35,191 nt of DNA. Origin: an uncultured bacterium (GTDB lineage: Bacteria > Caldisericota > Caldisericia > B22-G15). The stretch spans positions 1 to 35,191 of the forward strand of contig CBFDTJ010000008.1 of NCBI GenBank assembly GCA_965612865.1, in the 5' to 3' direction. A program made the translations under genes and the position numbers. Positions 1-35,191 of the stretch are shown one piece after another. Every line of letters starts with the position of its first letter. Position 1 is the first letter of the stretch. Below the pieces are notes generated by a model, which was not told the DNA's origin, ran no database searches, and saw only the letters and a program-made list of their open reading frames with translations.

Positions 1-53
1 CGAGATCTACACCTAAGCCTTCGTCGGCAGCGTCAGATGTGTATAAGAGACAG
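1..53 (+). other. Illumina Nextera i5 adapter remnant (P5 tail, index CTAAGCCT, s5, Tn5 mosaic end); not genomic
   Basis: CGAGATCTACAC-CTAAGCCT-TCGTCGGCAGCGTC-AGATGTGTATAAGAGACAG matches the Nextera read-1 adapter layout. Confidence 0.99.
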
Positions 54-610
54 ATGTATTTTGTTGAGGGCAAGTGTGGACCTCTACATAAATCCACAAA
101 TTCCCCAACTTTATATATACTTATTGTTTCTTCCTCAAGCTCATCTATAAGTTCCAGTTTAAACTTCTCGTCTTTGAATAATTCCTTTGCCCTTTCCTTT
201 GATATTTCCTCTTTCTCAAATTTGTATTCTCTGGTTAAAAGCTCTCTCATTTTGTTTTCTATTTTCTCAATGTCCTCTGGAGTGAAAGGTTTTTCTACAA
301 GGAAATCATAATAAAATCCGTTCTTTATGGAAGGACCTATACCAAGTTTTGCGCCCTTAAAAAGAGATTTAACAGCCCATGCAAGTATATGAGAGGTGGA
401 ATGATTTAAAATATCAAGAGCTTTCTCACTATCATGGGTTATAAATTCTATCTTGTCACCCTCTTCAGGCTGATAATAGAAATCTACCACTGTATCATTT
501 ACGATAGCCCCCACATAGTTATCCTCTGGTAAAAGGTGTAAAATTTTAAAAAGGTTATCACCTTCATCAATTTCCATTTCCTTTCCAATATTTTTAACAA
601 AAATGTTCAT
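54..610 (-). CDS. thrS: Threonine--tRNA ligase, N-terminal part (truncated by the contig end)
   Basis: Absent from the ORF track. Manual translation from the ATG at 610 gives MNIFVKNIGKEMEIDEG...ALDILNHSTSHILAWAVKSLFKGAKLGIGPSIKNGFYYDF, i.e. a TGS domain plus the HxxxH editing-domain signature. RBS GGAAGGTGA upstream. Confidence 0.95.
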
Positions 611-641: not shown

Positions 642-716
642 TGGTGGGCGATGGTGGACTCGAACCACCGACCTCTTCGATGTCAACGAAGCGTTCTACC
701 TCTGAACTAACCGCCC
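642..716 (-). tRNA. tRNA-Val(GAC), CCA encoded
   Basis: The reverse complement folds as a cloverleaf: GGGCGGT-TA-GTTC-AGAGGTA-GAAC-G-CTTCG-TT[GAC]AT-CGAAG-AGGTC-GGTGG-TTCGAGT-CCACC-ATCGCCC-A-CCA. Confidence 0.97.
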
Positions 717-768: not shown

Positions 769-1830
769 CTATTTTGGAAAAATTTTTGCTTGTTTCAAAT
801 AAATAGCTGGGGATTTTTTTCTTCCCTTGGGAATGGATGAAAGTTCTGGTTTGTCTGAAAGCCCAAAGACAAGGGCACCTTTCTTTTTTGCAATAAGGCC
901 CACATCATACACTTCCTTTGTAATTAATATCTCTTCGTTTAGTAGTTTCCTTACATCACTTATATCTGGAAGGAAATCCATTCTTTTTAGAGTGCAACTA
1001 AACTCCCTTTCTCTAAATGTTGGAAAAGCGGTTGGGTTTTTCTTTAGAAGATTCTCTTTAACCTCCTCCAGTAGTTTATATGCTTTCTCATTAGGTGAGA
1101 TTGTTATGGTATTAAAGAATTCTAAGGGCTCTCTCCATTTTCCGGCGTAAAACTCTCTTATAAACCTTCCAAGAGCATAGTAGTCTCCATAGAAAAGAAT
1201 ACTCATAATTGCCACTATATCCTGATTATCTCCTGTGAAGGAATGAAGACTTCTTCTATTCAGCCTGGAATATACATAATCAAATCTATCCTCTTCAATT
1301 CCACCTAAAGCATCCTTTATTATGGATGTAATTGCATCCATTCTCGCTTTGTCAATGGCTTTATTGTTTCTTCCTCTTGCTCCTATGAAGGTTTTATCAA
1401 TATCTATAACAACAATGGTTTTTTCGTCAAGTAAGAAACCTCTCCTCTCAAGGATCTCAAGAATTGGTAGGAGATTTCTCCACTTTGTATTAATTATTAT
1501 ATTCCCTTTAAACTTTATATAATCCTGTTCCCTCTCCTCTGTTATAACACCAGAGACTTCATATTCATCAAGTTCTGTGAGGTTTTTGATAACATTCCCA
1601 TCGTTTAGATAGGTGTCTCCAAAGTATATTACTTTTTCAAAATCTCCTATCTTTTTGAATAGAAAGGACAAAACTTTTGCATATTCAGGATCTTTCTTTC
1701 TTGGAAGAAAGTCAAATTTTAGCTGTTTCTTTAATTCCGAAAAGGAAGGCAATTCCTTTCTTAAAGGATTAAGTTCCCTAAAGACTATATAATTTTCAAA
1801 GATGGTGTTTAAATTGTCTCTCTTATACAT
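769..1830 (-). CDS. Hypothetical protein; probable circularly permuted HAD-superfamily phosphatase/phosphotransferase
   Basis: 353 aa. PRKKDPEY (motif III-like, K45), VIYFGDTYLND (motif IV), VVIDIDKT (motif I DxDxT, D143/D145), a helical cap, then KKKGALVFGLSDKP (motif II, S325). Start overlaps the asd stop. Confidence 0.7.
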   Translation of the reverse strand: MYKRDNLNTIFENYIVFRELNPLRKELPSFSELKKQLKFDFLPRKKDPEYAKVLSFLFKKIGDFEKVIYFGDTYLNDGNVIKNLTELDEYEVSGVITEEREQDYIKFKGNIIINTKWRNLLPILEILERRGFLLDEKTIVVIDIDKTFIGARGRNNKAIDKARMDAITSIIKDALGGIEEDRFDYVYSRLNRRSLHSFTGDNQDIVAIMSILFYGDYYALGRFIREFYAGKWREPLEFFNTITISPNEKAYKLLEEVKENLLKKNPTAFPTFREREFSCTLKRMDFLPDISDVRKLLNEEILITKEVYDVGLIAKKKGALVFGLSDKPELSSIPKGRKKSPAIYLKQAKIFPK

Positions 1831-2863
1831 ATAATCCCTCCAAAAGCTCTAATTTTAATGCAAGTTCTAAATTTAGAATACTTCCTCCTGCTGCCCCCCT
1901 TATAGTGTTGTGAGAGATGAGTGTAAATGTAAAGAAACTTTCTTCCGTTTTCTCTATTCTACCTACAGTTATACTCATTCCCTTTCCGTTGAATCTGTCA
2001 AAGAAAGGCTGTGGTCTATCAATTTCCTCTCTTACGACTATTGGTTTTTCAGGTGCCGTTGGCAGGTGTAACTTTTGAGGCAATCCTTCAAATTCTATAA
2101 AAGACTTCTTTAATTCAGAAAGAGACGGGTTCTTTTCTGTTTTTACAAATACGACTTCCATATGACCATCTCTTACCATAACCCTATTACACCTTGCATA
2201 CACTTTAAAACTACCAGGGACAAATTTCCCGTTAAATTTCCCAAGAATTTTTTTACTTTCCAATTTTATCTTTTCCTCCTCTTTTTCTATGTAAGGAATA
2301 ATATTATCCAGAATAGAAAGAGAGGGGACTCCGGGAAACCCAGCTCCTGATAGAGCTTGCATTGTAAAGAGGGTTACTCTCTCTATTCCAAATCTATCCA
2401 TAATAGGTTTTAGTGAGATTACGAGACCAGCTGTGGAGCAGTTAGGATTTGTAATTATAACTCCCTTTCTTTTTTGATACCTTATAGCTTCAAGATGTTC
2501 TGGATTGACCTCTGGCACAACTATCGGAACAAAATCGTCATACCTGTGACTGCTTGCATTACTGAATACATAATGCCCATTTTTCGATAGTCTCTCCTCT
2601 ACATCAAAGGCAATAGATGATGGAAGAGCCGAAAATACTATTTTCTCTGGCTGATCCCTTTCTAAAGATAGAAGGGGAAGATGGGCAATACTTTCCGGAA
2701 TTCCTCCTTCAAGTATCCATTTTACAGCATTTTTATACTTCTCTCCTCTCTTCTTTTCCGATGCAAAGATAGAACTTATTTTGAACCACGGATGTTCGGA
2801 TAATATTTGAACAAATCTCTGACCTACTGCTCCTGTGGCTCCAAGAATCGATACATTTATCAT
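1823..2863 (-). CDS. asd: Aspartate-semialdehyde dehydrogenase (archaeal/fungal-like subtype)
   Basis: GATGAVGQRF NAD-binding motif, catalytic Cys in TNPNCST, QALSGAG, DNIIPYI, SHNTIRGAAGG. Confidence 0.96.
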   Translation of the reverse strand: MINVSILGATGAVGQRFVQILSEHPWFKISSIFASEKKRGEKYKNAVKWILEGGIPESIAHLPLLSLERDQPEKIVFSALPSSIAFDVEERLSKNGHYVFSNASSHRYDDFVPIVVPEVNPEHLEAIRYQKRKGVIITNPNCSTAGLVISLKPIMDRFGIERVTLFTMQALSGAGFPGVPSLSILDNIIPYIEKEEEKIKLESKKILGKFNGKFVPGSFKVYARCNRVMVRDGHMEVVFVKTEKNPSLSELKKSFIEFEGLPQKLHLPTAPEKPIVVREEIDRPQPFFDRFNGKGMSITVGRIEKTEESFFTFTLISHNTIRGAAGGSILNLELALKLELLEGLYV

Positions 2864-5256
2864 ATCTCTCTCCCTATTCTTAAAATATCTGACAATACAC
2901 CTGAGGCTGTAATTAAAGGTCCTGCCCCTATGCCTTTAATTATAACAGGATTTTTCTTATATCTTACGGTATATATGAGAAAGATATTTTCACCTGGCTT
3001 TAGATTGTAGAATTCCGAATTTTTGCTAAAAACTTCGAGAGAAACTTTAACCTTTCTTCCTTCAATCCTTGATACAGGATAAACAAAACCACCTTCTCTC
3101 ATCTTATTGATTCTATCTCTAAAGCTTCTTATCTCTGTTTTTCTGAATTCTTCAAGAGAGTTGGATTCAACAAATTCCTCGAAGTCTATATGAGATAATT
3201 CAAGTTTCTTTCCTATAATTCTTGCAAGGATTAAAGTTTTTCTTAAAATATCTGTTCCCTTTAGATCATCCATAGGATTTGGTTCTGTATAGCTGAGTTT
3301 CATAGCAAGTTCTATTGCATCAGTGATATCCTTTCCTCTATTCAGATGATAGAAGATGAAGGATAGAGAGCCACTGGGTAGGGATACGATCCTTTTTATC
3401 CTATCACCTGTCTCCATTAAATTTAGTAAAGTTTTTATTACAGGAAGAGATGCTCCAACGGTAGTTTCGAAGTAGAACTTCCCGTGAGAACTTGTAAGGC
3501 TTTTAAATGTTTTGAAGTTTTTTACAAGATTCTTTTTATTGGATGTGACCGCATTCGCTCCATATCTTAATGCATCTATGAGAATATCGGTAGTTTCATC
3601 TGAGTTGGTAACATCAACAAACACGGTGTTCCTTTTTTTTACAAAATCTGACAAATTTGGTTTACCCTTATTAGGAAACTGGAAATCCTTCTCTTTTATA
3701 TACTTCTCTGTCTCTTCACCTAAAATATAGGAGTTACTTCTTAAAACACCTCTATAAACAATTCTTATTCTTTCTTCCTTTTCAATTCTTTTTCTTTCCG
3801 ACAGGATTAATTCAATAAGACTTTTCCCAACTTTTCCAACGCCAAACTGCACAATTTCTACTACCTTTATTCCCTCTTTATCCAGAGATAAACCTAATTC
3901 TATATGTAGAGCTTTAACTGCTTCTTTAACTTCTCTCTCTTTAACCACAAAAGAGATATTGTATTCAGATGAACCCTGTGCAATGGCAATTATATTTATT
4001 CCGTGTCTTCCCAGAGTGGAGAAAACCTTTCCAGCAATTCCAGGGGTTCCTTTCATTCCCGCTCCTATAACTGAGATTATAGCGACTCCATCTTCTTTTA
4101 ATACGCCTTCAATTTCCTTCTTTTCAATTTCCCTTTCAAATTCCTCTTTCAGGCATTTTATAAAATTATCTGCCTCTTCCTTCTTCACCACGAGGCAAAT
4201 ATTTTGTTCTGAGGAGGATTGAGATATCATGAGTATGTTTGTTTTACTCTTCCATGCAGATTTAAAAACTCTTGCAGCAATTCCCGGAACACCAAGCATT
4301 CCTCTTCCGTTAACACTTACAAGTGAGAGATTTTTTATATAGGTTAGAGATTTAATTATATTTTTATCCTTTCTTACCCTTTTAACAATTACTGTACCGG
4401 GAAAATCAGGATTAAAGGTATTCTTTATTCTTACAGGTATATTTTTTTCCATAACAGGTGAAAGGGTTTTTGGGTGAAGAACCTTTGCTCCATAGTAGGA
4501 GAGTTCTGCTGCTTCAATGTATGAGATGTATGGAAGTGGTTTTGCATCCTCAGTGATTCTGGGGTCAGCTGTCATTACCCCATCAACATCTGTCCATATC
4601 CATACCTCTCTTGCAGCAAGAACTCTCCCTAAAATTGTTGCTGTAAAGTCACTTCCTCCTCTCCCAAGGGTGGTTATTCTTCCATCTTTCGTGCTGCCTA
4701 TAAACCCCGTAACTATTGGTGTTGTTTCCTTTGGAAGCAGATCTTTATTAAATATATTATTAGCTCTTTTCTCAATCTCAGCATATATTGGACTCGCATT
4801 TCCAAATTCATCTGTTGTTATAAGAAAGGAGTTTGCATCAATGTATGCAGATTTAATTCCAGATCTATTTAAATACTCTGAAATTATTCTTACAATCATT
4901 CTCTCCCCGAAGGAAGCTATTGTGTCAAGAGCTCTGGGCGTTAATTCCCCGAGAACCTCTATACTTTTTAGTATATTTAAAAGTTCTTCAAGAAGTGTCT
5001 CTACATTTTCAAGCCGCTCTTTAAAGAGCTCCTCCATAACAGATATATGCCTGTCCCTTATGTTTACATACTCGTTTAGATATTTCTTATCCCCCACCTG
5101 GGAGAGTTTTCCAGCCTTTATCAGTAAATCAGTTACTCCGCTCATAGCAGACACAACAACCACTTTTTCCTCTCTATTTTTTGCCAGAATATTTTTAAGA
5201 TTTCTTATCCTTGCAGCGCTTCCTACAGAGGTTCCTCCAAATTTCATTATTATCAT
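2860..5256 (-). CDS. thrA: Bifunctional aspartokinase/homoserine dehydrogenase
   Basis: AK domain (KFGGTSV, VVSAMSGVT, TLGRGGSD, WTDVDG..ADPR), two ACT domains, HSDH domain (GVGKVG, ETTVGASLP, TEPNPMDDLKG, GIGAG). Confidence 0.95.
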   Translation of the reverse strand: MIIMKFGGTSVGSAARIRNLKNILAKNREEKVVVVSAMSGVTDLLIKAGKLSQVGDKKYLNEYVNIRDRHISVMEELFKERLENVETLLEELLNILKSIEVLGELTPRALDTIASFGERMIVRIISEYLNRSGIKSAYIDANSFLITTDEFGNASPIYAEIEKRANNIFNKDLLPKETTPIVTGFIGSTKDGRITTLGRGGSDFTATILGRVLAAREVWIWTDVDGVMTADPRITEDAKPLPYISYIEAAELSYYGAKVLHPKTLSPVMEKNIPVRIKNTFNPDFPGTVIVKRVRKDKNIIKSLTYIKNLSLVSVNGRGMLGVPGIAARVFKSAWKSKTNILMISQSSSEQNICLVVKKEEADNFIKCLKEEFEREIEKKEIEGVLKEDGVAIISVIGAGMKGTPGIAGKVFSTLGRHGINIIAIAQGSSEYNISFVVKEREVKEAVKALHIELGLSLDKEGIKVVEIVQFGVGKVGKSLIELILSERKRIEKEERIRIVYRGVLRSNSYILGEETEKYIKEKDFQFPNKGKPNLSDFVKKRNTVFVDVTNSDETTDILIDALRYGANAVTSNKKNLVKNFKTFKSLTSSHGKFYFETTVGASLPVIKTLLNLMETGDRIKRIVSLPSGSLSFIFYHLNRGKDITDAIELAMKLSYTEPNPMDDLKGTDILRKTLILARIIGKKLELSHIDFEEFVESNSLEEFRKTEIRSFRDRINKMREGGFVYPVSRIEGRKVKVSLEVFSKNSEFYNLKPGENIFLIYTVRYKKNPVIIKGIGAGPLITASGVLSDILRIGREI

Positions 5257-6533
5257 AGATTCTCCTCCATAATTCTTTCGATAAGACTCTCCACTTCCTT
5301 TATCTCATTTTTTACAGTGATAGGTCTGTTTATCATCTCTTCAGGGATTCCCTCAATTTCTCCCATATGAAACTTTGTTACTATGTCTGGATCTTTTAAG
5401 AGATTTCCCGTAAGAATTAAAACAGCACTTTCATAAGATTTAACGATTCCCTTTTCTATCATTTTAATCAAACCTGCAAGGGAAGCTGCTGATGCTGGTT
5501 CGCATCCTATTCCCATGGAATCAATTTTTGCTTTTGCCATAAGAATTTCTCTGTCAGCAACCTCTTCAACAAATCCTTTTGTGAAATCTATGGTTCGTTT
5601 GGCCTTTTCAAAGTTTACTGGATTTCCAATCCTTATTGCCGTTGCAACTGTTTCTGCTTTCCTCGGTTTAAAATCCCAGTTGTTTTTAAATGAAAGGTAG
5701 AAAGGGTTTGCTTCCTTTGCCTGTATAACAGCAATTTTTGGAATCTTATCTATTATTTTGAATTTTTTAAGCTCCATAAGTGCTTTTCCAAAAGCTGATG
5801 TATTTCCAAGATTTCCTCCAGGAAGTATTATCCAGTCAGGCACCTCCCAGTTTAATTGAAAAAATGTGTGAATTATAATCGTCTTTTGCCCCTCAAGTCT
5901 TATTGGATTTAGCGAGTTTAAAAGGTATATTTTATACTTTTTAGAAATCTCCTTTACGATTCTCATAGCATCATCAAAATCACCTTCAATTTGAATTGTC
6001 TTTGCTCCATAGGAAAGAGCCTGCGAGAGTTTGCCAAGTGCAATTTTTCCCTTTGGAAGGAAAACTATAGGGATGAGTCCTCCTCTTTTTGCATAAGCAG
6101 TCATTGATGCTGATGTGTTTCCAGTGGAAGCGCATGCCACAATTCTATATCCCAGCTTTTTTGCGAAAGTTACTCCCACCGTCATTCCTCTATCCTTGAA
6201 AGAGCCTGTTGGATTCTCCCCTTCATGTTTTAGGAATACCCCTTTAACTCCCTTTATCTCATCGGATATGTCATATAGGTTTGTTTTCCCTTCAGGAAAT
6301 GTGACTATCTCATCTTCGTTAAGGTCAAGCACCAACTCCCTGAATCTCCAGACTCCGCTTTCATCAATACTTTTTCTACTCCCCACCCTCTTCTCCCACA
6401 CATCCTTTAGATAAGAAAGATTTTCTTCATTCCTTATGTGAACGTCAAGAAGCCCACCACACTGGCATGTGTATCTTCCAGTTAAAAGAGAATATTCTTT
6501 TCCACATCTTATGCACTTTAAGACTCTCTCCAT
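5253..6533 (-). CDS. thrC: Threonine synthase
   Basis: N-terminal Zn ribbon (CIRC..CQCGG), PLP lysine motif NPTGSFKDRG, CASTGNTSAS, RLEGQKT, PGGNLGN, EPASA, LTGNLLKD. Confidence 0.96.
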   Translation of the reverse strand: MERVLKCIRCGKEYSLLTGRYTCQCGGLLDVHIRNEENLSYLKDVWEKRVGSRKSIDESGVWRFRELVLDLNEDEIVTFPEGKTNLYDISDEIKGVKGVFLKHEGENPTGSFKDRGMTVGVTFAKKLGYRIVACASTGNTSASMTAYAKRGGLIPIVFLPKGKIALGKLSQALSYGAKTIQIEGDFDDAMRIVKEISKKYKIYLLNSLNPIRLEGQKTIIIHTFFQLNWEVPDWIILPGGNLGNTSAFGKALMELKKFKIIDKIPKIAVIQAKEANPFYLSFKNNWDFKPRKAETVATAIRIGNPVNFEKAKRTIDFTKGFVEEVADREILMAKAKIDSMGIGCEPASAASLAGLIKMIEKGIVKSYESAVLILTGNLLKDPDIVTKFHMGEIEGIPEEMINRPITVKNEIKEVESLIERIMEENL

Positions 6534-10488: not shown

Positions 10489-11716
10489 GTTTTACCTCTC
10501 CATTCTTTATAAGATATTTTAAATAATTCATTCCAAAGAAGTAAGGTATGAGTTTGTATGTTTTAAGCGAGAGAATCTGAAGATTAGCTGATTTCCCTTT
10601 TTCTATACTTCCAGTATTCTCATGGATGGATAGAGCGAAAGCAGGGTTTATGGTAGAAGCATTTATTGCTTCTTCAATGGAAAGACCTTCTCTTATAACA
10701 GAAAGAGATAGAACAAGATAAAAGTTTATTGTAGGTGACGTTCCCGGATTGAAGTCTGTTGATATTGCCAGAGGAACGCCACTGTCAGCAATCCGTCTTC
10801 CCAATCCTCCCTCTTTTAAAAGAAACATTCTCTCTGTTGGAAATATAATTCCCACTATATCTTTTTTGGCTAGCTCTTTAAGAGATTCTGTATCTGTTTT
10901 ATCAAGATGAGACACGGAGTTTAGATTCAACTCTATAGCCACTTCAATTCCACCAATAGTGTTAAATTGATCAACATGCATAGAGGTTTTAAATCCAAGT
11001 TTTTTTGCTTCAGATAGGAAGGTATATGCTTCTTCCTTTGAAAAGGCATCCTTCTCAACGAATATGTCAACAAAGTCTGAAAGTTCTTCATCCTTTATAA
11101 ATTTTAGGTTTTCAATAGCTTTCTTAAAATAAGCACTTCTATCAATTCCCTTTGGTGGAAGGTGAAGTAGGAAGGTGGAAATAATATTTTTATTTCTTTT
11201 CTTCACTTCTTTTATAATTTTTAATATCCTTATTTCATCCTCAATGTAGAGACCATAGCCACTTTTTATTTCAAAGGTTGAAATACCGTGGGTTTCTCCT
11301 TTTTCTATAAAGGAGAGTGCTCTTTCTATGAGTTTAGCGTCTTCAAGGGATTTTGTTGCTCTTACTGTGGAGTATATTCCTCCCCCCTTCCTTTGAATCT
11401 CAAGATAACTTACGCCAGATAGTCTCATAAGAAACTCTTCCTCTCTTGTTCCACCGAAAACAAGGTGCGTGTGGGCTTCAACAAAAGAAGGTAAAACAAT
11501 ACTTTCACCAGAAAGATCTATTTCCTTTTCTCCTGAATATACATCCCTTATTCTCTCACTCTCTCCAACATCAACAATCTTTCCATCTTTTATGGCTATA
11601 CCGCCACCTTTAATGACTTTTAATTCTTTTAAGCTTTCACCTTTTTTCGGCACATTCCCTTCTGGTGTTACTATCTCTGATGCGTTGATTATTAATAAAC
11701 TGGCATGCTCTCTCAT
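10478..11716 (-). CDS. hutI: Imidazolonepropionase (amidohydrolase superfamily)
   Basis: [49 protein letters not shown]. Confidence 0.88.
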
Positions 11717-14700
11717 CAGTCACATTTTGAGTATCCACACTTTGGACACGTCCAGCAACCCTCAATACTTATCATTGGAGTTCCACATTCAGGGCATAAA
11801 GGTATGTCAAGATTTATCTTAGGTTCCTCTTCACTTTCTTCCTCTGCCTTCTCCTCAACAACTATCTTTTTCTTTTCCTCTTTTCTCATGGAAAGATACT
11901 TTTCTATTGCTTTGGCAATAGCGTCTGCACAGGATAGAATTTTATCTCCATCCTGCCATGTTGGATTTGGACACCTGATTCCCTTTAATTGATCAACTAT
12001 GGAATCTGGGTCAATTCCTGATCTTAAAGCAAGGGATATTAGTCTGGAAATTGCCTCAGTTTGAGATGCTGCACACCCACCAGCCTTCCCAAGAGTTGAA
12101 AAGACTTCACATATTCCATTTTCGTCTTCGTTTATAGTTACATACAGGTTGCCACATCCAGTCTTCATCTTTATTGTGGCACCAAAGGTAATTTTAGGTC
12201 TTGGTCTTGGTTTTAGTTTCTCTCCTCTTTTCTCTTCCTTTCCTCTTATAAGTACCTGAGTCTCTTTAGATCTATCTCTATATACTGTTATTCCTTTTAA
12301 ACCAAGTTTATATCCTGTAAGGTATATATTCTTTATTTCGTCAACTTTAGCATCCTGAGGGAGATTTACTGTCTTTGAAACAGCGTTATCTGTGTATCTT
12401 TGAAAGGCTCCCTGCATCTTTACGTGCCATTCCCAGTGTATATCATGTGCAGTAACGTATATTCTTTTCATATCTTCTGGAATTTCTTCTATATCCTGAA
12501 TGCTTCCCTCTTCAATAACTTTATCCATCAACTCTTCTGAATAGAGTCCTCGTTCTTTAAGTTCCCTTTCAAATATTGGATGTATCTCATTCCACTCTCC
12601 TATAGCTACCTTTCTCTTAAATGCAAGTGCAAATAAAGGTTCAATTCCAGAAGAACAACCAGCAATTATGCTTATAGATCCAGTTGGGGCAATTGTAGTG
12701 ATTGTTGCATTCCTGACCTTTCTTTCCTCTTTTTCAAATACGCTTCCCTTCCAGTTGGGGAAAACTCCTCTTTTTTCTGCAAGTTCCTCTGATTTCTTCC
12801 AGCCTTCCTTGCTTATAAAACTCATCACATCTTCTGCAACTTTAAGTGCTTCTTCTGAATCGTAAGGAATCCTTAGCTTTATAAGTAGATCATGAAACCC
12901 CATCACTCCCAATCCTATTTTTCTGTTACCTTTTGTTTCCCTTTCAATTTCAGGAAGCGGGAATTTATTTACATCAATTACATTGTCAAGAAAATGAACT
13001 GCAGTTCTTACAACTTCTCCCAAAGAGTTATAGTCAATCTTTCCATCTACCGCAAACTTGGATACATCAATGGAGCCAAGATTACACGATTCATAAGGTA
13101 GAAGAGGCTGCTCACCACAGTCCATGCTTAATATTCCATTGGTTATCCATGTATACTCTGGCGGTGCAGTTATATCAAAAACTTCTTCCTCGCCATCTTC
13201 ATCTATGCTTATAATTTCCTGATATTCATACTTTTTTAGTGTTGAGTATGTATTTTTATTCCCTGCGAGTTTCTTAAACTTCTCTTTCTTTTTTCCAATA
13301 AATCCTATTTTTTCAAAGAATAAGCTCGCTCTTTCTCCAGAGATTAAAATTCTGTAAGTAGAGTTTGTTCTATAGCTTTTTCCTTTTATAGTTTTTGTCT
13401 CTTCCCCTTTCTCCTTTGTTAATGTAGATGGGATACCGAGATAGAGTAAAAGAATCTGAACCTGTTTTAGAAGTTTCTTTGAGGAGGAAGAAAGAGCAAC
13501 CGTGATAGTTCCTTTTGATTCATAAACTGTTCCATCAGAAGAAAATATTCCCCTAAGAAGTGCTTTTATGGATTCTGTATCCTCCCTCAGGAATTTTTTA
13601 GGAATCTCCTTTTCTATGCTTTTGGAAGTTTCTATCCCAAAAATTCCTCTTAGCTTCTCTGCAAACTGTTTTACATGAGTATCCACTATAAACTGGTTCT
13701 CCCTCTCCATAATGTAGGAGGAGCCGGAGAATCTTTCAAGTATAGGAGAGAGATGATTGACAAGCTCTAAGTCACTTCCCACATGTAAAGATACATGATT
13801 TGAATTGCTTAAAGATCCATCTCCAATAAAATATCCAATAAGTTCAAAGAATTCTATATCTTTTGTTTTGTTAGATTTTACCTCTGGATAATTCAAAGGA
13901 ACAAAAACTCTATCATGAAGTTTTAAGTCCCTCACCTCTTTCCATCCATCCTCTGTCATAAGTTTATGCTCAGGAGTTACTCTAATTTCCAATCCAGATT
14001 TCAAAGTAATTTTATATATCTTTTTGACCCCATTATTTATAACTTCCTCTATCTTGTTCCATCCTCTACCATTCCATGCTCTCATTCCCTTCTTAAGGTC
14101 CCTTGCTTCAACAAGTCCTTCATCTGTAGCTACAAGAGTATCTCCAACCACACAGGGGTTCGTGGATTCTATATCTCCAACATTGGGTGTCGGATTGTGT
14201 TTGTTTATGGTATCTATAAAAATTACGCCTGGATCACCTGTTTTCCAGGCGTGTTCTGCTATTAAATCAAAAACATACTTTGCCCTTAACTTTTTCCAAA
14301 CTTTCCCATTTCTCGGGTTTATAAGCTCATACTCTTCATCATCAAAGTACCTTCTCATAAATTCATCTGTTATTGCCACAGAAATATTGAAATTGGTAAG
14401 AATCCCTTTTTCGTCCTTTGCTGTTATGAATTCAAGGATATCTGGATGATCAACTCTTAAAATGCCCATATTTGCTCCCCTTCTTACCCCTCCCTGTTTT
14501 ATAGTATCGGTAGCTACATCAAATATCTTCATGAATGATACAGGCCCTGAAGCAACACCCATTGTGCTTTTGACTATATCACCTTTGGGTCTCAATCTTG
14601 AGAATGAAAAGCCTGTTCCTCCCCCTGATTGGTGAATTAATGCAGCATGCTTTATCGCATCAAATATTTCTGTGAGGGAGTCTCCAACAGGTAAAACAAA

Positions 14701-14973
14701 GCAGGCTGAGAGTTGTCCAAGTTCTCTTCCTGCGTTCATGAGTGTTGGAGAGTTGGGAATGAATTTTAGCTCTTCCATTACATTTAGGAATTCATTGTAG
14801 GTTTTTTCTATATCAGCTTCCTTATCATAGATCTTATCTGCTTCAGCTATTGTTCTCGCCACACGCTCAAACATATCCTCAGGGCTTTCTATAACTTCCC
14901 CTTTCTCATTTTTTTTGAGGTATCTTTTTTCGAGGACAAAAATTGCCTGTTTTGTGAGATTTACTTTACTCAT
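11716..14973 (-). CDS. nrdJ: Class II (adenosylcobalamin-dependent) ribonucleotide reductase precursor containing an intein
   Basis: PNSPTLMNAG, QLSACF, GGGTG, RRGANMG, TNP|CGEQPL split by the intein, ESCNLGS, RNATITTIAPTG, SKTVN, C-terminal TSCPD-type domain (CADAIA) and Zn ribbon CPECG..CPKCGYSKC. Confidence 0.95.
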   Translation of the reverse strand: MSKVNLTKQAIFVLEKRYLKKNEKGEVIESPEDMFERVARTIAEADKIYDKEADIEKTYNEFLNVMEELKFIPNSPTLMNAGRELGQLSACFVLPVGDSLTEIFDAIKHAALIHQSGGGTGFSFSRLRPKGDIVKSTMGVASGPVSFMKIFDVATDTIKQGGVRRGANMGILRVDHPDILEFITAKDEKGILTNFNISVAITDEFMRRYFDDEEYELINPRNGKVWKKLRAKYVFDLIAEHAWKTGDPGVIFIDTINKHNPTPNVGDIESTNPCVVGDTLVATDEGLVEARDLKKGMRAWNGRGWNKIEEVINNGVKKIYKITLKSGLEIRVTPEHKLMTEDGWKEVRDLKLHDRVFVPLNYPEVKSNKTKDIEFFELIGYFIGDGSLSNSNHVSLHVGSDLELVNHLSPILERFSGSSYIMERENQFIVDTHVKQFAEKLRGIFGIETSKSIEKEIPKKFLREDTESIKALLRGIFSSDGTVYESKGTITVALSSSSKKLLKQVQILLLYLGIPSTLTKEKGEETKTIKGKSYRTNSTYRILISGERASLFFEKIGFIGKKKEKFKKLAGNKNTYSTLKKYEYQEIISIDEDGEEEVFDITAPPEYTWITNGILSMDCGEQPLLPYESCNLGSIDVSKFAVDGKIDYNSLGEVVRTAVHFLDNVIDVNKFPLPEIERETKGNRKIGLGVMGFHDLLIKLRIPYDSEEALKVAEDVMSFISKEGWKKSEELAEKRGVFPNWKGSVFEKEERKVRNATITTIAPTGSISIIAGCSSGIEPLFALAFKRKVAIGEWNEIHPIFERELKERGLYSEELMDKVIEEGSIQDIEEIPEDMKRIYVTAHDIHWEWHVKMQGAFQRYTDNAVSKTVNLPQDAKVDEIKNIYLTGYKLGLKGITVYRDRSKETQVLIRGKEEKRGEKLKPRPRPKITFGATIKMKTGCGNLYVTINEDENGICEVFSTLGKAGGCAASQTEAISRLISLALRSGIDPDSIVDQLKGIRCPNPTWQDGDKILSCADAIAKAIEKYLSMRKEEKKKIVVEEKAEEESEEEPKINLDIPLCPECGTPMISIEGCWTCPKCGYSKCD
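13120..14154 (-). mobile_element. 345-aa intein with LAGLIDADG homing endonuclease (precursor residues 274-618), ending in Met-Asp
   Basis: Block A CVVGDTLV, block B VTPEHKL, endonuclease motifs LIGYFIGDGS and LLRGIFSSDG, block F VFDITAP, block G WITNGILSMD followed by Cys+1. Removing it restores STNPCGEQPL. Confidence 0.93.
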
Positions 14974-35123: not shown

Positions 35124-35191
35124 CTGTCTCTTATACACATCTCCGAGCCCACGAGACTAGGCATGATATCGTATGCCGTCTTCTGCTTGAA
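35124..35191 (+). other. Illumina Nextera i7 adapter read-through (mosaic end, s7, index TAGGCATG, P7); not genomic
   Basis: CTGTCTCTTATACACATCT-CCGAGCCCACGAGAC-TAGGCATG-AT(A)TCGTATGCCGTCTTCTGCTTG, with one mismatch to P7. Confidence 0.99.

What the first reader, a model, noticed from the sequence alone, without database searches (positions are those of the whole stretch)
769..1830. Circularly permuted HAD-superfamily enzyme
Seen: all four HAD motifs are present but in permuted order. Motif III Lys (PRKKDPEY, ~K45) and motif IV (YFGDTYLND, D72/D77) come first, then motif I (VIDIDKT, D143-x-D145-x-T147), a ~150-aa helical cap, and motif II at the C-terminus (KKKGALVFGLSDKP, resembling the 'G..l.ivSNKP' strand of phosphoglycolate phosphatase-type HADs). 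The N-terminal LNTIFENYIVF resembles the 'l..yFd.iv' segment that normally follows motif II, which places the break just after motif II. Established: canonical HAD order is I-II-III-IV. Inference: the permutation would make standard HAD profiles miss the protein, leaving it as 'hypothetical'.
Basis: partly seen in the sequence, partly recalled or inferred. Interest (0 to 1): 0.8.

Follow-up and report, generated by a model that had tools for sequence, protein, structure and literature searches.

The report
Permuted HAD replacing homoserine kinase
An unannotated enzyme whose phosphatase-type (HAD) motifs are shuffled in order closes a threonine biosynthesis operon that lacks homoserine kinase, and it likely performs that missing step, which would add a new enzyme family to a pathway with a known gap.

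Summary
Observation confirmed. The 353-aa ORF (769-1830, minus strand) carries HAD motifs in the order III-IV-I-cap-II. The catalytic residues are nearly invariant in 145 full-length relatives, and 212 of 212 proteins holding all three segments share the order. Each segment ranks a HAD profile first of 28. Fold searches were inconclusive (Z below 5 to HADs), and the rearranged full-length profile scored no better than the native one.

The gene ends a thrC-thrA-asd operon with no thrB. 77 of 80 related loci lie beside threonine-pathway genes, some behind Thr T-boxes. In a Chloroflexota sample 0 of 30 carriers have thrB, against 255 of 321 non-carriers; in this phylum 0 of 20 do. None of 50 carriers has another known substitute above cut-off. 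One carrier from another phylum has thrB.

Best reading: a homoserine phosphotransferase working through phospho-Asp143 (about 0.7). The donor is unknown. SerA is missing in most carriers of this phylum, so aspartyl phosphate is a candidate.

The scan found this family before on other DNA (Chloroflexota); my paper searches found no description.

The parts
769..1830 (-). Circularly permuted HAD-type protein, 353 aa; proposed homoserine phosphotransferase
1780..1812 (-). Residues 7-17: segment that aligns, after rearrangement, with the strand following motif II in canonical HADs; not significant on its own
1681..1704 (-). Motif III region (R44, K45)
1600..1626 (-). Motif IV (G71, D72, D77), predicted Mg2+ ligands
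1390..1410 (-). Motif I (D143-x-D145-x-T147): predicted nucleophile and general acid/base
931..1383 (-). About 150-aa helical cap between motifs I and II (C1 position), with conserved R163, T199-x-D201-N-Q-D204, F272-R273-x-x-E276
847..885 (-). Motif II (S325) followed by D326-K/R327-P328
1823..2863 (-). asd, aspartate-semialdehyde dehydrogenase (TIGR00978, 437 bits, above cut-off); its stop overlaps the start of the finding's gene
2860..5256 (-). thrA, bifunctional aspartate kinase/homoserine dehydrogenase (NF006959, 757 bits, above cut-off)
5253..6533 (-). thrC, threonine synthase (TIGR00260, 260 bits, above cut-off); first gene of the overlapping thrC-thrA-asd-X run
642..716 (-). tRNA-Val(GAC) just downstream; probably has its own promoter-like site at 757-729
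2..610 (-). 5' part of thrS (threonine-tRNA ligase), cut by the contig end

Best explanation
The protein carries the four HAD motifs in circularly permuted order and likely makes O-phosphohomoserine, the substrate of threonine synthase, in bacteria that lack homoserine kinase. Shown: motif order and conservation, operon position, and near-exclusive distribution with thrB. Inferred from HAD chemistry: Mg2+ held by D143, D72 and D77; D143 takes a phosphoryl group from a donor, steadied by S325 and K45; D145 acts as acid then base; the large helical cap closes over the site, and its conserved Asp and Arg residues grip the amino and carboxyl groups of homoserine, so the phosphoryl group passes to the homoserine hydroxyl rather than to water. 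It would work like Pseudomonas ThrH but is not a ThrH. The donor is not shown. My best single guess is beta-aspartyl phosphate made by the neighbouring aspartate kinase (about 0.3 within this explanation), then phosphoserine (0.2), ATP/PPi/polyphosphate (0.2), or another phosphometabolite (0.3).
For: Operon thrC-thrA-asd-X with overlapping genes. Own genome has no thrB, thrB_alt, thrH or HomK above cut-off; its only GHMP kinase is IspE. 77 of 80 related loci hold asd (67), aspartate kinase (56), thrC (52) or homoserine dehydrogenase (23); asd is the immediate upstream gene in 60 of 80 and thrC the immediate downstream gene in 27 of 80. A further 18 of 20 loci from a separate genome sample have asd adjacent. 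Chloroflexota sample of 351 genomes: family in 30, thrB in 255, overlap 0; all 30 carriers have thrC. Own phylum, 93 genomes: family in 20, thrB in 21, overlap 0. 0 of 50 carriers exceed the cut-off for HomK, thrB_alt or thrH. T-box leaders stand before the gene cluster in 5 of 38 loci scanned, four with a clear ACC (Thr) specifier. SAM riboswitch operons with a cystathionine-gamma-synthase-like gene or metX include the gene. One protein fuses aspartate kinase to the family domain (P0073).
Against: No activity was tested. Genome G096 has the family gene beside aspartate kinase and also a thrB above cut-off. 25 of the 30 Chloroflexota carriers hold an APH-fold kinase with 61-128 bits to thrB_alt (cut-off 256) that could be a diverged homoserine kinase; the four contexts read showed no threonine genes. 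15 of 50 carriers hold an ApgM-like protein (164-201 bits to HomK, cut-off 446); the own copy scores as phosphoglycerate mutase, but GapMind 2026 shows one such protein acting as HomK. G183 has a near-cut-off thrH (210 against 223). Kin are not independent: about 22 of the 30 carriers score alike and look like one clade. 2 of 20 loci had no threonine gene nearby. A side clade keeps the motifs but is fused to DUF4062 or unknown domains. Fold searches gave no significant HAD match. The own genome is 87.6% complete.
Confidence: 0.72

Rival explanations
1. It fills the homoserine kinase step as a true kinase, using ATP, pyrophosphate or polyphosphate through the phospho-aspartate, with the basic residues of the large cap binding the polyphosphate donor.
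For: Many nearly invariant basic residues: R18 145, R44 144, R163 144, R273 144, K/R327 145 of 145. The cap is about twice the size of that in the HAD_2 comparison set. P-type ATPases use a HAD core with ATP (recalled). The donor would be available in all carriers.
Against: Motif I is DxDxT, the phosphatase/phosphotransferase form, not the DKTGT of P-type ATPases (recalled definitions). No nucleotide-binding family matched. ThrH was shown to have no ATP-dependent kinase activity (PMC1079889, passage).
Confidence: 0.14
2. It is a hydrolytic phosphatase attached to the aspartate pathway (for O-phosphohomoserine, phosphothreonine, phosphoserine or surplus aspartyl phosphate), and the kinase step is done by another unrecognised protein such as the APH-like or ApgM-like ones.
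For: Most HADs are phosphatases (established). The tightest link is to asd rather than thrC. APH-like kinases occur in 25 of 30 Chloroflexota carriers and ApgM-like proteins in 15 of 50. G096 has thrB as well.
Against: A phosphatase gives no reason for the exclusion with thrB (0 of 50). None of the 20 carriers of this phylum has the APH-like protein and 9 of them have no ApgM-like protein either. A destroyer of ThrC's substrate under a Thr T-box makes little sense.
Confidence: 0.1
3. The motifs are a convergent likeness and the protein is not derived from a HAD, whatever its role in threonine synthesis.
For: No Pfam, NCBIfam or PDB sequence hit of significance. Whole-model fold searches list no HAD. 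HAD matches to the 1-150 fragment have Z 4.6-4.8, ranks 27-47. No relative in canonical order was found among 333 proteins.
Against: Three separate segments each rank HAD first of 28 templates and map to the expected HAD positions. They become colinear on one cut. Weak NIF/dullard HAD hits cover residues 49-118. The named Atlas look-alikes are HAD clusters at 0.76-0.77, a lead only. The four named HAD structures align model residues 2-133 to their C-terminal halves.
Confidence: 0.04

Closest known systems
ThrH of Pseudomonas aeruginosa (phosphoserine:homoserine phosphotransferase; NCBIfam TIGR02137)
   Same: HAD-type enzyme that can stand in for homoserine kinase by phosphoryl transfer through a phospho-enzyme (PMC1079889, passage).
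   Different: ThrH is about 200 aa (model 203 positions) in canonical order. This protein is 353 aa, permuted, with a 150-aa cap, and does not match TIGR02137. It sits in threonine operons and excludes thrB. SerA is missing in most carriers of this phylum, so the donor may differ.
HomK / ThrB2 (BT2402, TIGR02535)
   Same: Non-orthologous thrB replacement found by the same logic (operon position, complementary occurrence), confirmed by complementation, donor unknown (GapMind 2026, passages and Appendix 3; PMC9026213, passages).
   Different: Phosphoglycerate-mutase/alkaline-phosphatase type with a catalytic serine and two metals; no sequence match to this protein.
ThrB (GHMP kinase, TIGR00191) and type II ThrB (APH fold, TIGR00938)
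   Same: Same proposed product and often the same place in the operon, before thrC.
   Different: Direct ATP-dependent kinases of unrelated folds; no match.
C1-capped HAD phosphatases (HAD_2 PF13419; structures NANP 2w4m, HDHD3 3k1z, YfnB 3i76, 2pke)
   Same: Motifs I-IV, cap between motifs I and II; their C-terminal halves align with residues 2-133 of the model (89-95 residues, rmsd 3.0-3.5).
   Different: Canonical order, smaller cap, hydrolytic; the structural Z of 4.6-4.8 is not significant on its own.

Membership tests
HAD superfamily | Motif I DxDx(T/V) at the end of a core strand | tested here: met
   D143 144, D145 144, T147 142 of 145; strand 138-143; HAD rank 1 of 28, E 2e-5
HAD superfamily | Motif II Ser/Thr at the end of a core strand | tested here: met
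   S/T325 in 145 of 145; strand 320-324; maps to HAD 89-113, rank 1 of 28 but weak, E 6e-3
HAD superfamily | Motif III Lys and motif IV (G)DxxxxD | tested here: met
   K45 143 K + 2 R, D72 143, D77 144 of 145; maps to HAD 135-176, rank 1 of 28, E 6e-5
HAD superfamily (canonical form) | Motif order I-II-III-IV | tested here: not met
   Order III/IV-I-II in 212 of 212 proteins with all three segments; this is the permutation
HAD superfamily | Rossmannoid HAD core fold | tested here: inconclusive
   Fragment 1-150 against HAD C-terminal halves: Z 4.6-4.8, rmsd 3.0-3.5, 89-95 residues aligned, tied with unrelated rows
HAD superfamily | Catalytic residues converge on one Mg2+ site; phospho-aspartate intermediate | not testable with these tools
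ThrH (TIGR02137) | Score above the family cut-off of 223 bits | tested here: not met
   No match at E up to 1
ThrH (TIGR02137) | Phosphoserine:homoserine phosphotransferase activity | not testable with these tools
   Indirect only: SerA above cut-off in 25 of 30 Chloroflexota carriers and 0 of 20 in this phylum
ThrB, GHMP type (TIGR00191) | GHMP kinase domains | tested here: not met
   No Pfam or NCBIfam match
HomK/ThrB2 (TIGR02535) | ApgM-like metalloenzyme with catalytic serine | tested here: not met
   No match
Type II ThrB (TIGR00938) | APH kinase fold | tested here: not met
   No match

The most novel reading that the evidence does not exclude
A naturally circularly permuted HAD enzyme that makes O-phosphohomoserine by taking the phosphoryl group from beta-aspartyl phosphate, the product of aspartate kinase and a near-isostere of O-phosphohomoserine. 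Aspartate kinase would then serve as the only ATP-using enzyme of the threonine pathway, and its feedback control would gate both phosphorylation steps.
Probability: 0.22. Interest if true: 0.88.

Novelty: new variant of a known kind. Interest (0 to 1): 0.72.

Why it matters
Homoserine kinase is one of four steps that make up most of the remaining gaps in amino-acid pathway annotation: it is missing in 16 of 208 prototrophs in GapMind 2026 (passage), which does not mention Chloroflexus, Roseiflexus or Caldisericum. This family (509 matching stretches in the GTDB species genomes from one pattern) would be a further solution to that step, would correct false threonine-auxotrophy calls in Chloroflexota and Caldisericota, and can be tested with one complementation experiment. 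It would also be a natural, family-wide circular permutation of the HAD core with intact catalytic motifs, for which my two literature searches found no precedent.

Tried and rejected
Sequence searches: Pfam, NCBIfam, PADLOC and PDB sequences gave nothing significant for the protein, its alignment or its halves.

Fold searches: with the whole model, Foldseek gave no match at E 0.001 and VIA-align a best Z of 6.7 and 6.2, with no HAD among the listed rows. These aligners are sequential, so the absence neither supports nor refutes a permutation. Foldseek with the 1-150 model found nothing. The Atlas search with residues 135-335 gave no usable hit.

Rearrangement tests: hmmsearch with the family profile cut at 16 positions against 30 HADs and 1719 own-genome ORFs put 4-6 HADs in the top 15 at every cut, with no gain from the proposed cut. 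hhalign of full-length rearrangements gave the same score as native. With the cap removed, every order with motif I before III/IV scored E 2e-6 to 6e-6, so that test places I before III/IV but hardly resolves motif II. 13 of the 30 HADs were dropped from the HAD alignment because the motif I/IV pattern filter did not find both motifs.

No canonical-order relative was found, but only the best 150 of 395 and 120 of 620 hits were visible.

Rejected: replacement of homoserine dehydrogenase, because this operon already has it in ThrA. No T-box or riboswitch was found in the window or in 11 Caldisericota/WOR-3-type loci. A complex prediction with Asd was not available, so binding is untested.

Literature: 8 searches found no description of this family.

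Full report
1. The observation. The window holds a 353-codon ORF at 769-1830 on the minus strand, with a good ribosome-binding site. No Pfam, NCBIfam or PDB sequence family matches significantly; the only echoes are sub-threshold NIF/dullard HAD hits over residues 49-118 (E 0.12 and 0.003). The protein belongs to a real family: 65 homologues by single-sequence search, 395 representatives at 50% identity by profile, and 509 matching stretches in GTDB species genomes. Record titles name mainly Chloroflexota, Caldisericota, WOR-3 and Bipolaricaulota; sources call the proteins hypothetical. In 145 full-length members the proposed catalytic residues are nearly invariant: K45 143 (+2 R), D72 143, D77 144, D143 144, D145 144, T147 142, S/T325 145.

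2. Is it a permuted HAD? The AlphaFold model is confident (pLDDT 96). D72, D143 and S325 each end a strand, residues 156-299 form a helical insert, and short strand elements lie at both termini (4-5, 348-351). Against an alignment of 17 canonical HAD_2 proteins (17 of 30 fetched), hhalign finds three local matches in native order: 137 onward to HAD 3 onward, 40-87 to HAD 135-179, and 297-346 to HAD 79-129. A cut at 132 makes them one colinear 182-column alignment. Taken singly against 28 templates (27 unrelated families from the loci), the III/IV, I and II segments each rank HAD first (E 6e-5, 2e-5, 6e-3); segment 1-25 does not (rank 16). I chose those segments from the hypothesis, so the test shows specificity, not discovery. 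All 212 proteins that match the three segments, of 333 held, have the order III/IV-I-II. Against: the rearranged full-length profile scored no better than native, and a gain came only without the cap (E 2e-6 against 6e-4). Structure searches with the whole model listed no HAD. The 1-150 fragment model matched four named HADs (2w4m, 3k1z, 3i76, 2pke), with model residues 2-133 on their C-terminal halves, but at Z 4.6-4.8, tied with unrelated rows. I put the permuted-HAD reading at about 0.9 or above, resting on motifs and profiles, not on fold scores.

3. Context. The gene is the last of four overlapping genes: thrC (5253-6533), thrA aspartate kinase/homoserine dehydrogenase (2860-5256), asd (1823-2863) and this gene, followed by tRNA-Val and thrS. 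That is the whole route from aspartate to threonine except homoserine kinase. In the 80 best related loci, 77 contain asd (67), aspartate kinase (56), thrC (52) or homoserine dehydrogenase (23); the three without are 2.5, 2.6 and 7.9 kb long. asd is directly upstream in 60 of 80 and thrC directly downstream in 27 of 80. The common Chloroflexota order is aspartate kinase-asd-X-thrC. Of 20 loci taken from the 30 carriers of an evenly drawn genome sample, 18 have asd adjacent and 2 have no threonine gene nearby. T-box leaders precede the cluster in 5 of 38 loci scanned (L017, L026, L037, L045, L079). Four read ACC (Thr) at the specifier position and L079 is ambiguous; in L045 and L037 other genes lie between asd and the family gene. 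None was found in the window or in 11 Caldisericota/WOR-3-type loci. In L059 a SAM riboswitch heads a cystathionine-gamma-synthase-like gene, aspartate kinase, asd and the family gene; in L133 it heads metX, aspartate kinase, homoserine dehydrogenase, asd and the family gene. O-phosphohomoserine also feeds methionine synthesis in some organisms (GapMind 2026 passage). P0073 fuses aspartate kinase to the family domain, and P0098 fuses the domain to a Prok-JAB domain; each is a single sequence and could be a read-through.

4. Distribution against thrB. Own genome (87.6% complete): no thrB, thrB_alt or thrH, and the only GHMP kinase is IspE. Own phylum, 93 genomes: 20 match the family, one of them (G004) only as a fragment with stops outside any threonine operon. 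21 have thrB (19 above cut-off, 2 split over contigs) and none of these is a carrier; carrier G011 has only a 69-bit GHMP hit. The 31 genomes whose best thrC scores 241 bits or more are exactly the 19 intact carriers plus 12 thrB genomes (threshold chosen after seeing the data). Many genomes with lower-scoring thrC paralogues have neither gene. Chloroflexota sample, 351 genomes requested at 90% completeness or more: family in 30, thrB in 255, overlap 0 (Fisher p 3e-19, overstated because kin are not independent). One of the 255, G360, is flagged unpublished; without it the count is 254 of 320. All 30 carriers have thrC above cut-off. Across the 50 carriers none exceeds the cut-off for HomK, thrB_alt or thrH. 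Caveats: 15 have ApgM-like proteins, 25 have APH-like kinases, and G183 has a thrH-like gene at 210 of 223 bits. One carrier outside these samples, G096, has a thrB above cut-off.

5. Mechanism. Shown: motifs, order, context, distribution. Inferred from established HAD chemistry: Mg2+-dependent ping-pong transfer through phospho-D143, with D145 as acid/base and a C1-position cap that closes the site. The conserved cap residues D201, D204, R163, R273 and E276 are candidates for binding an amino acid; this is not shown. ThrH is the precedent for a HAD making O-phosphohomoserine without ATP (PMC1079889). On the donor: SerA exceeds its cut-off in 25 of 30 Chloroflexota carriers but 0 of 20 in this phylum. 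Only the own genome has a short SerA-like protein (308 bits); the other 19 score 171 bits or less or have no hit, including the single-contig G016. Phosphoserine is therefore doubtful as a universal donor. Beta-aspartyl phosphate differs from O-phosphohomoserine by one carbonyl oxygen, is a high-energy acyl phosphate, and is made and consumed by the two genes most tightly linked to this one. That HADs accept acyl phosphates is recalled, not from a call. This is a hypothesis at about 0.3 within the main reading; a paper search for it returned nothing.

6. Comparison and novelty. It works like ThrH or HomK but fails membership of ThrH, HomK, ThrB and type II ThrB. It meets the HAD motif criteria but not the canonical order. 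Papers seen: GapMind 2026 (10.1101/2024.10.14.618325; passages and Appendix 3; no occurrence of Chloroflex, Roseiflex or Caldiseric in the main text; its supplements were not seen and could list such a candidate); PMC9026213 (passages); PMC1079889 (passages); PMC7824862, PMC9503650 and PMC2575518 (passages, none about a permuted HAD). The other papers were seen only as search listings. Burroughs 2006 and Singh 2004 were not read, and subscription literature was not searched, so 'not in print' holds only. This scan's earlier notes reached the same reading on Chloroflexota DNA (four notes). I saw them after forming and testing the reading (stated), and they are not counted as evidence. What this window adds is a complete four-gene operon in a second phylum, with its own thrB exclusion and the missing SerA.

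7. Verdict. Most likely a circularly permuted HAD-type homoserine phosphotransferase replacing ThrB (0.72; a true kinase filling the same step adds 0.14). New variant of a known kind; interest 0.72.

Noticed in passing
window 13120-14154 (-), inside ORF 11716-14973: A 345-aa insert in a ribonucleotide-reductase-like protein looks like an intein (starts with Cys, next residue Cys) but ends in Asp rather than the usual Asn. Asp-ending inteins are rare and known from a reductase intein (recalled).
   Followed up: no
window 1-53 and about 35125-35191: Both contig ends carry what look like transposase library adapter sequences (recalled), which give false ends to the thrS and DegV-like ORFs.
   Followed up: partly
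window 757-729 (-): Sigma-70-like site (10 of 12) between the finding's stop and tRNA-Val, so tRNA-Val and thrS may be transcribed separately; 2 sites found against 0.7 expected.
   Followed up: no
proteins P0200, P0212, P0214, P0201, P0190, P0194, P0146, P0151, P0156, P0159, P0162, P0174: A side clade keeps the permuted motifs but carries long N-terminal extensions, DUF4062 in three; no PADLOC hit in the 10 scanned; genomic context not read. It may have another function.
   Followed up: partly
protein P0098: Family domain fused to a Prok-JAB domain. Mec, part of a pathway from O-phosphohomoserine to homocysteine, is a JAB-type protein (recalled).
   Followed up: no
G004:C54:49351-49710 (L143): Only a fragment of the family gene, with stops and no threonine genes around it: a probable remnant after loss of the operon.
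   Followed up: partly
G000:C5:18224-19459: A second thrC-like gene above cut-off, outside any threonine operon; such paralogues occur in many genomes of this phylum that have neither thrB nor the family.
   Followed up: no
G096 (L055, L142): Carrier with both the family gene, next to aspartate kinase, and a stand-alone thrB.
   Followed up: partly
L137, L138, L140, L141: A conserved APH-fold kinase (61-128 bits to thrB_alt) in 25 of 30 Chloroflexota carriers, not near threonine genes in the four contexts read; function open.
   Followed up: partly
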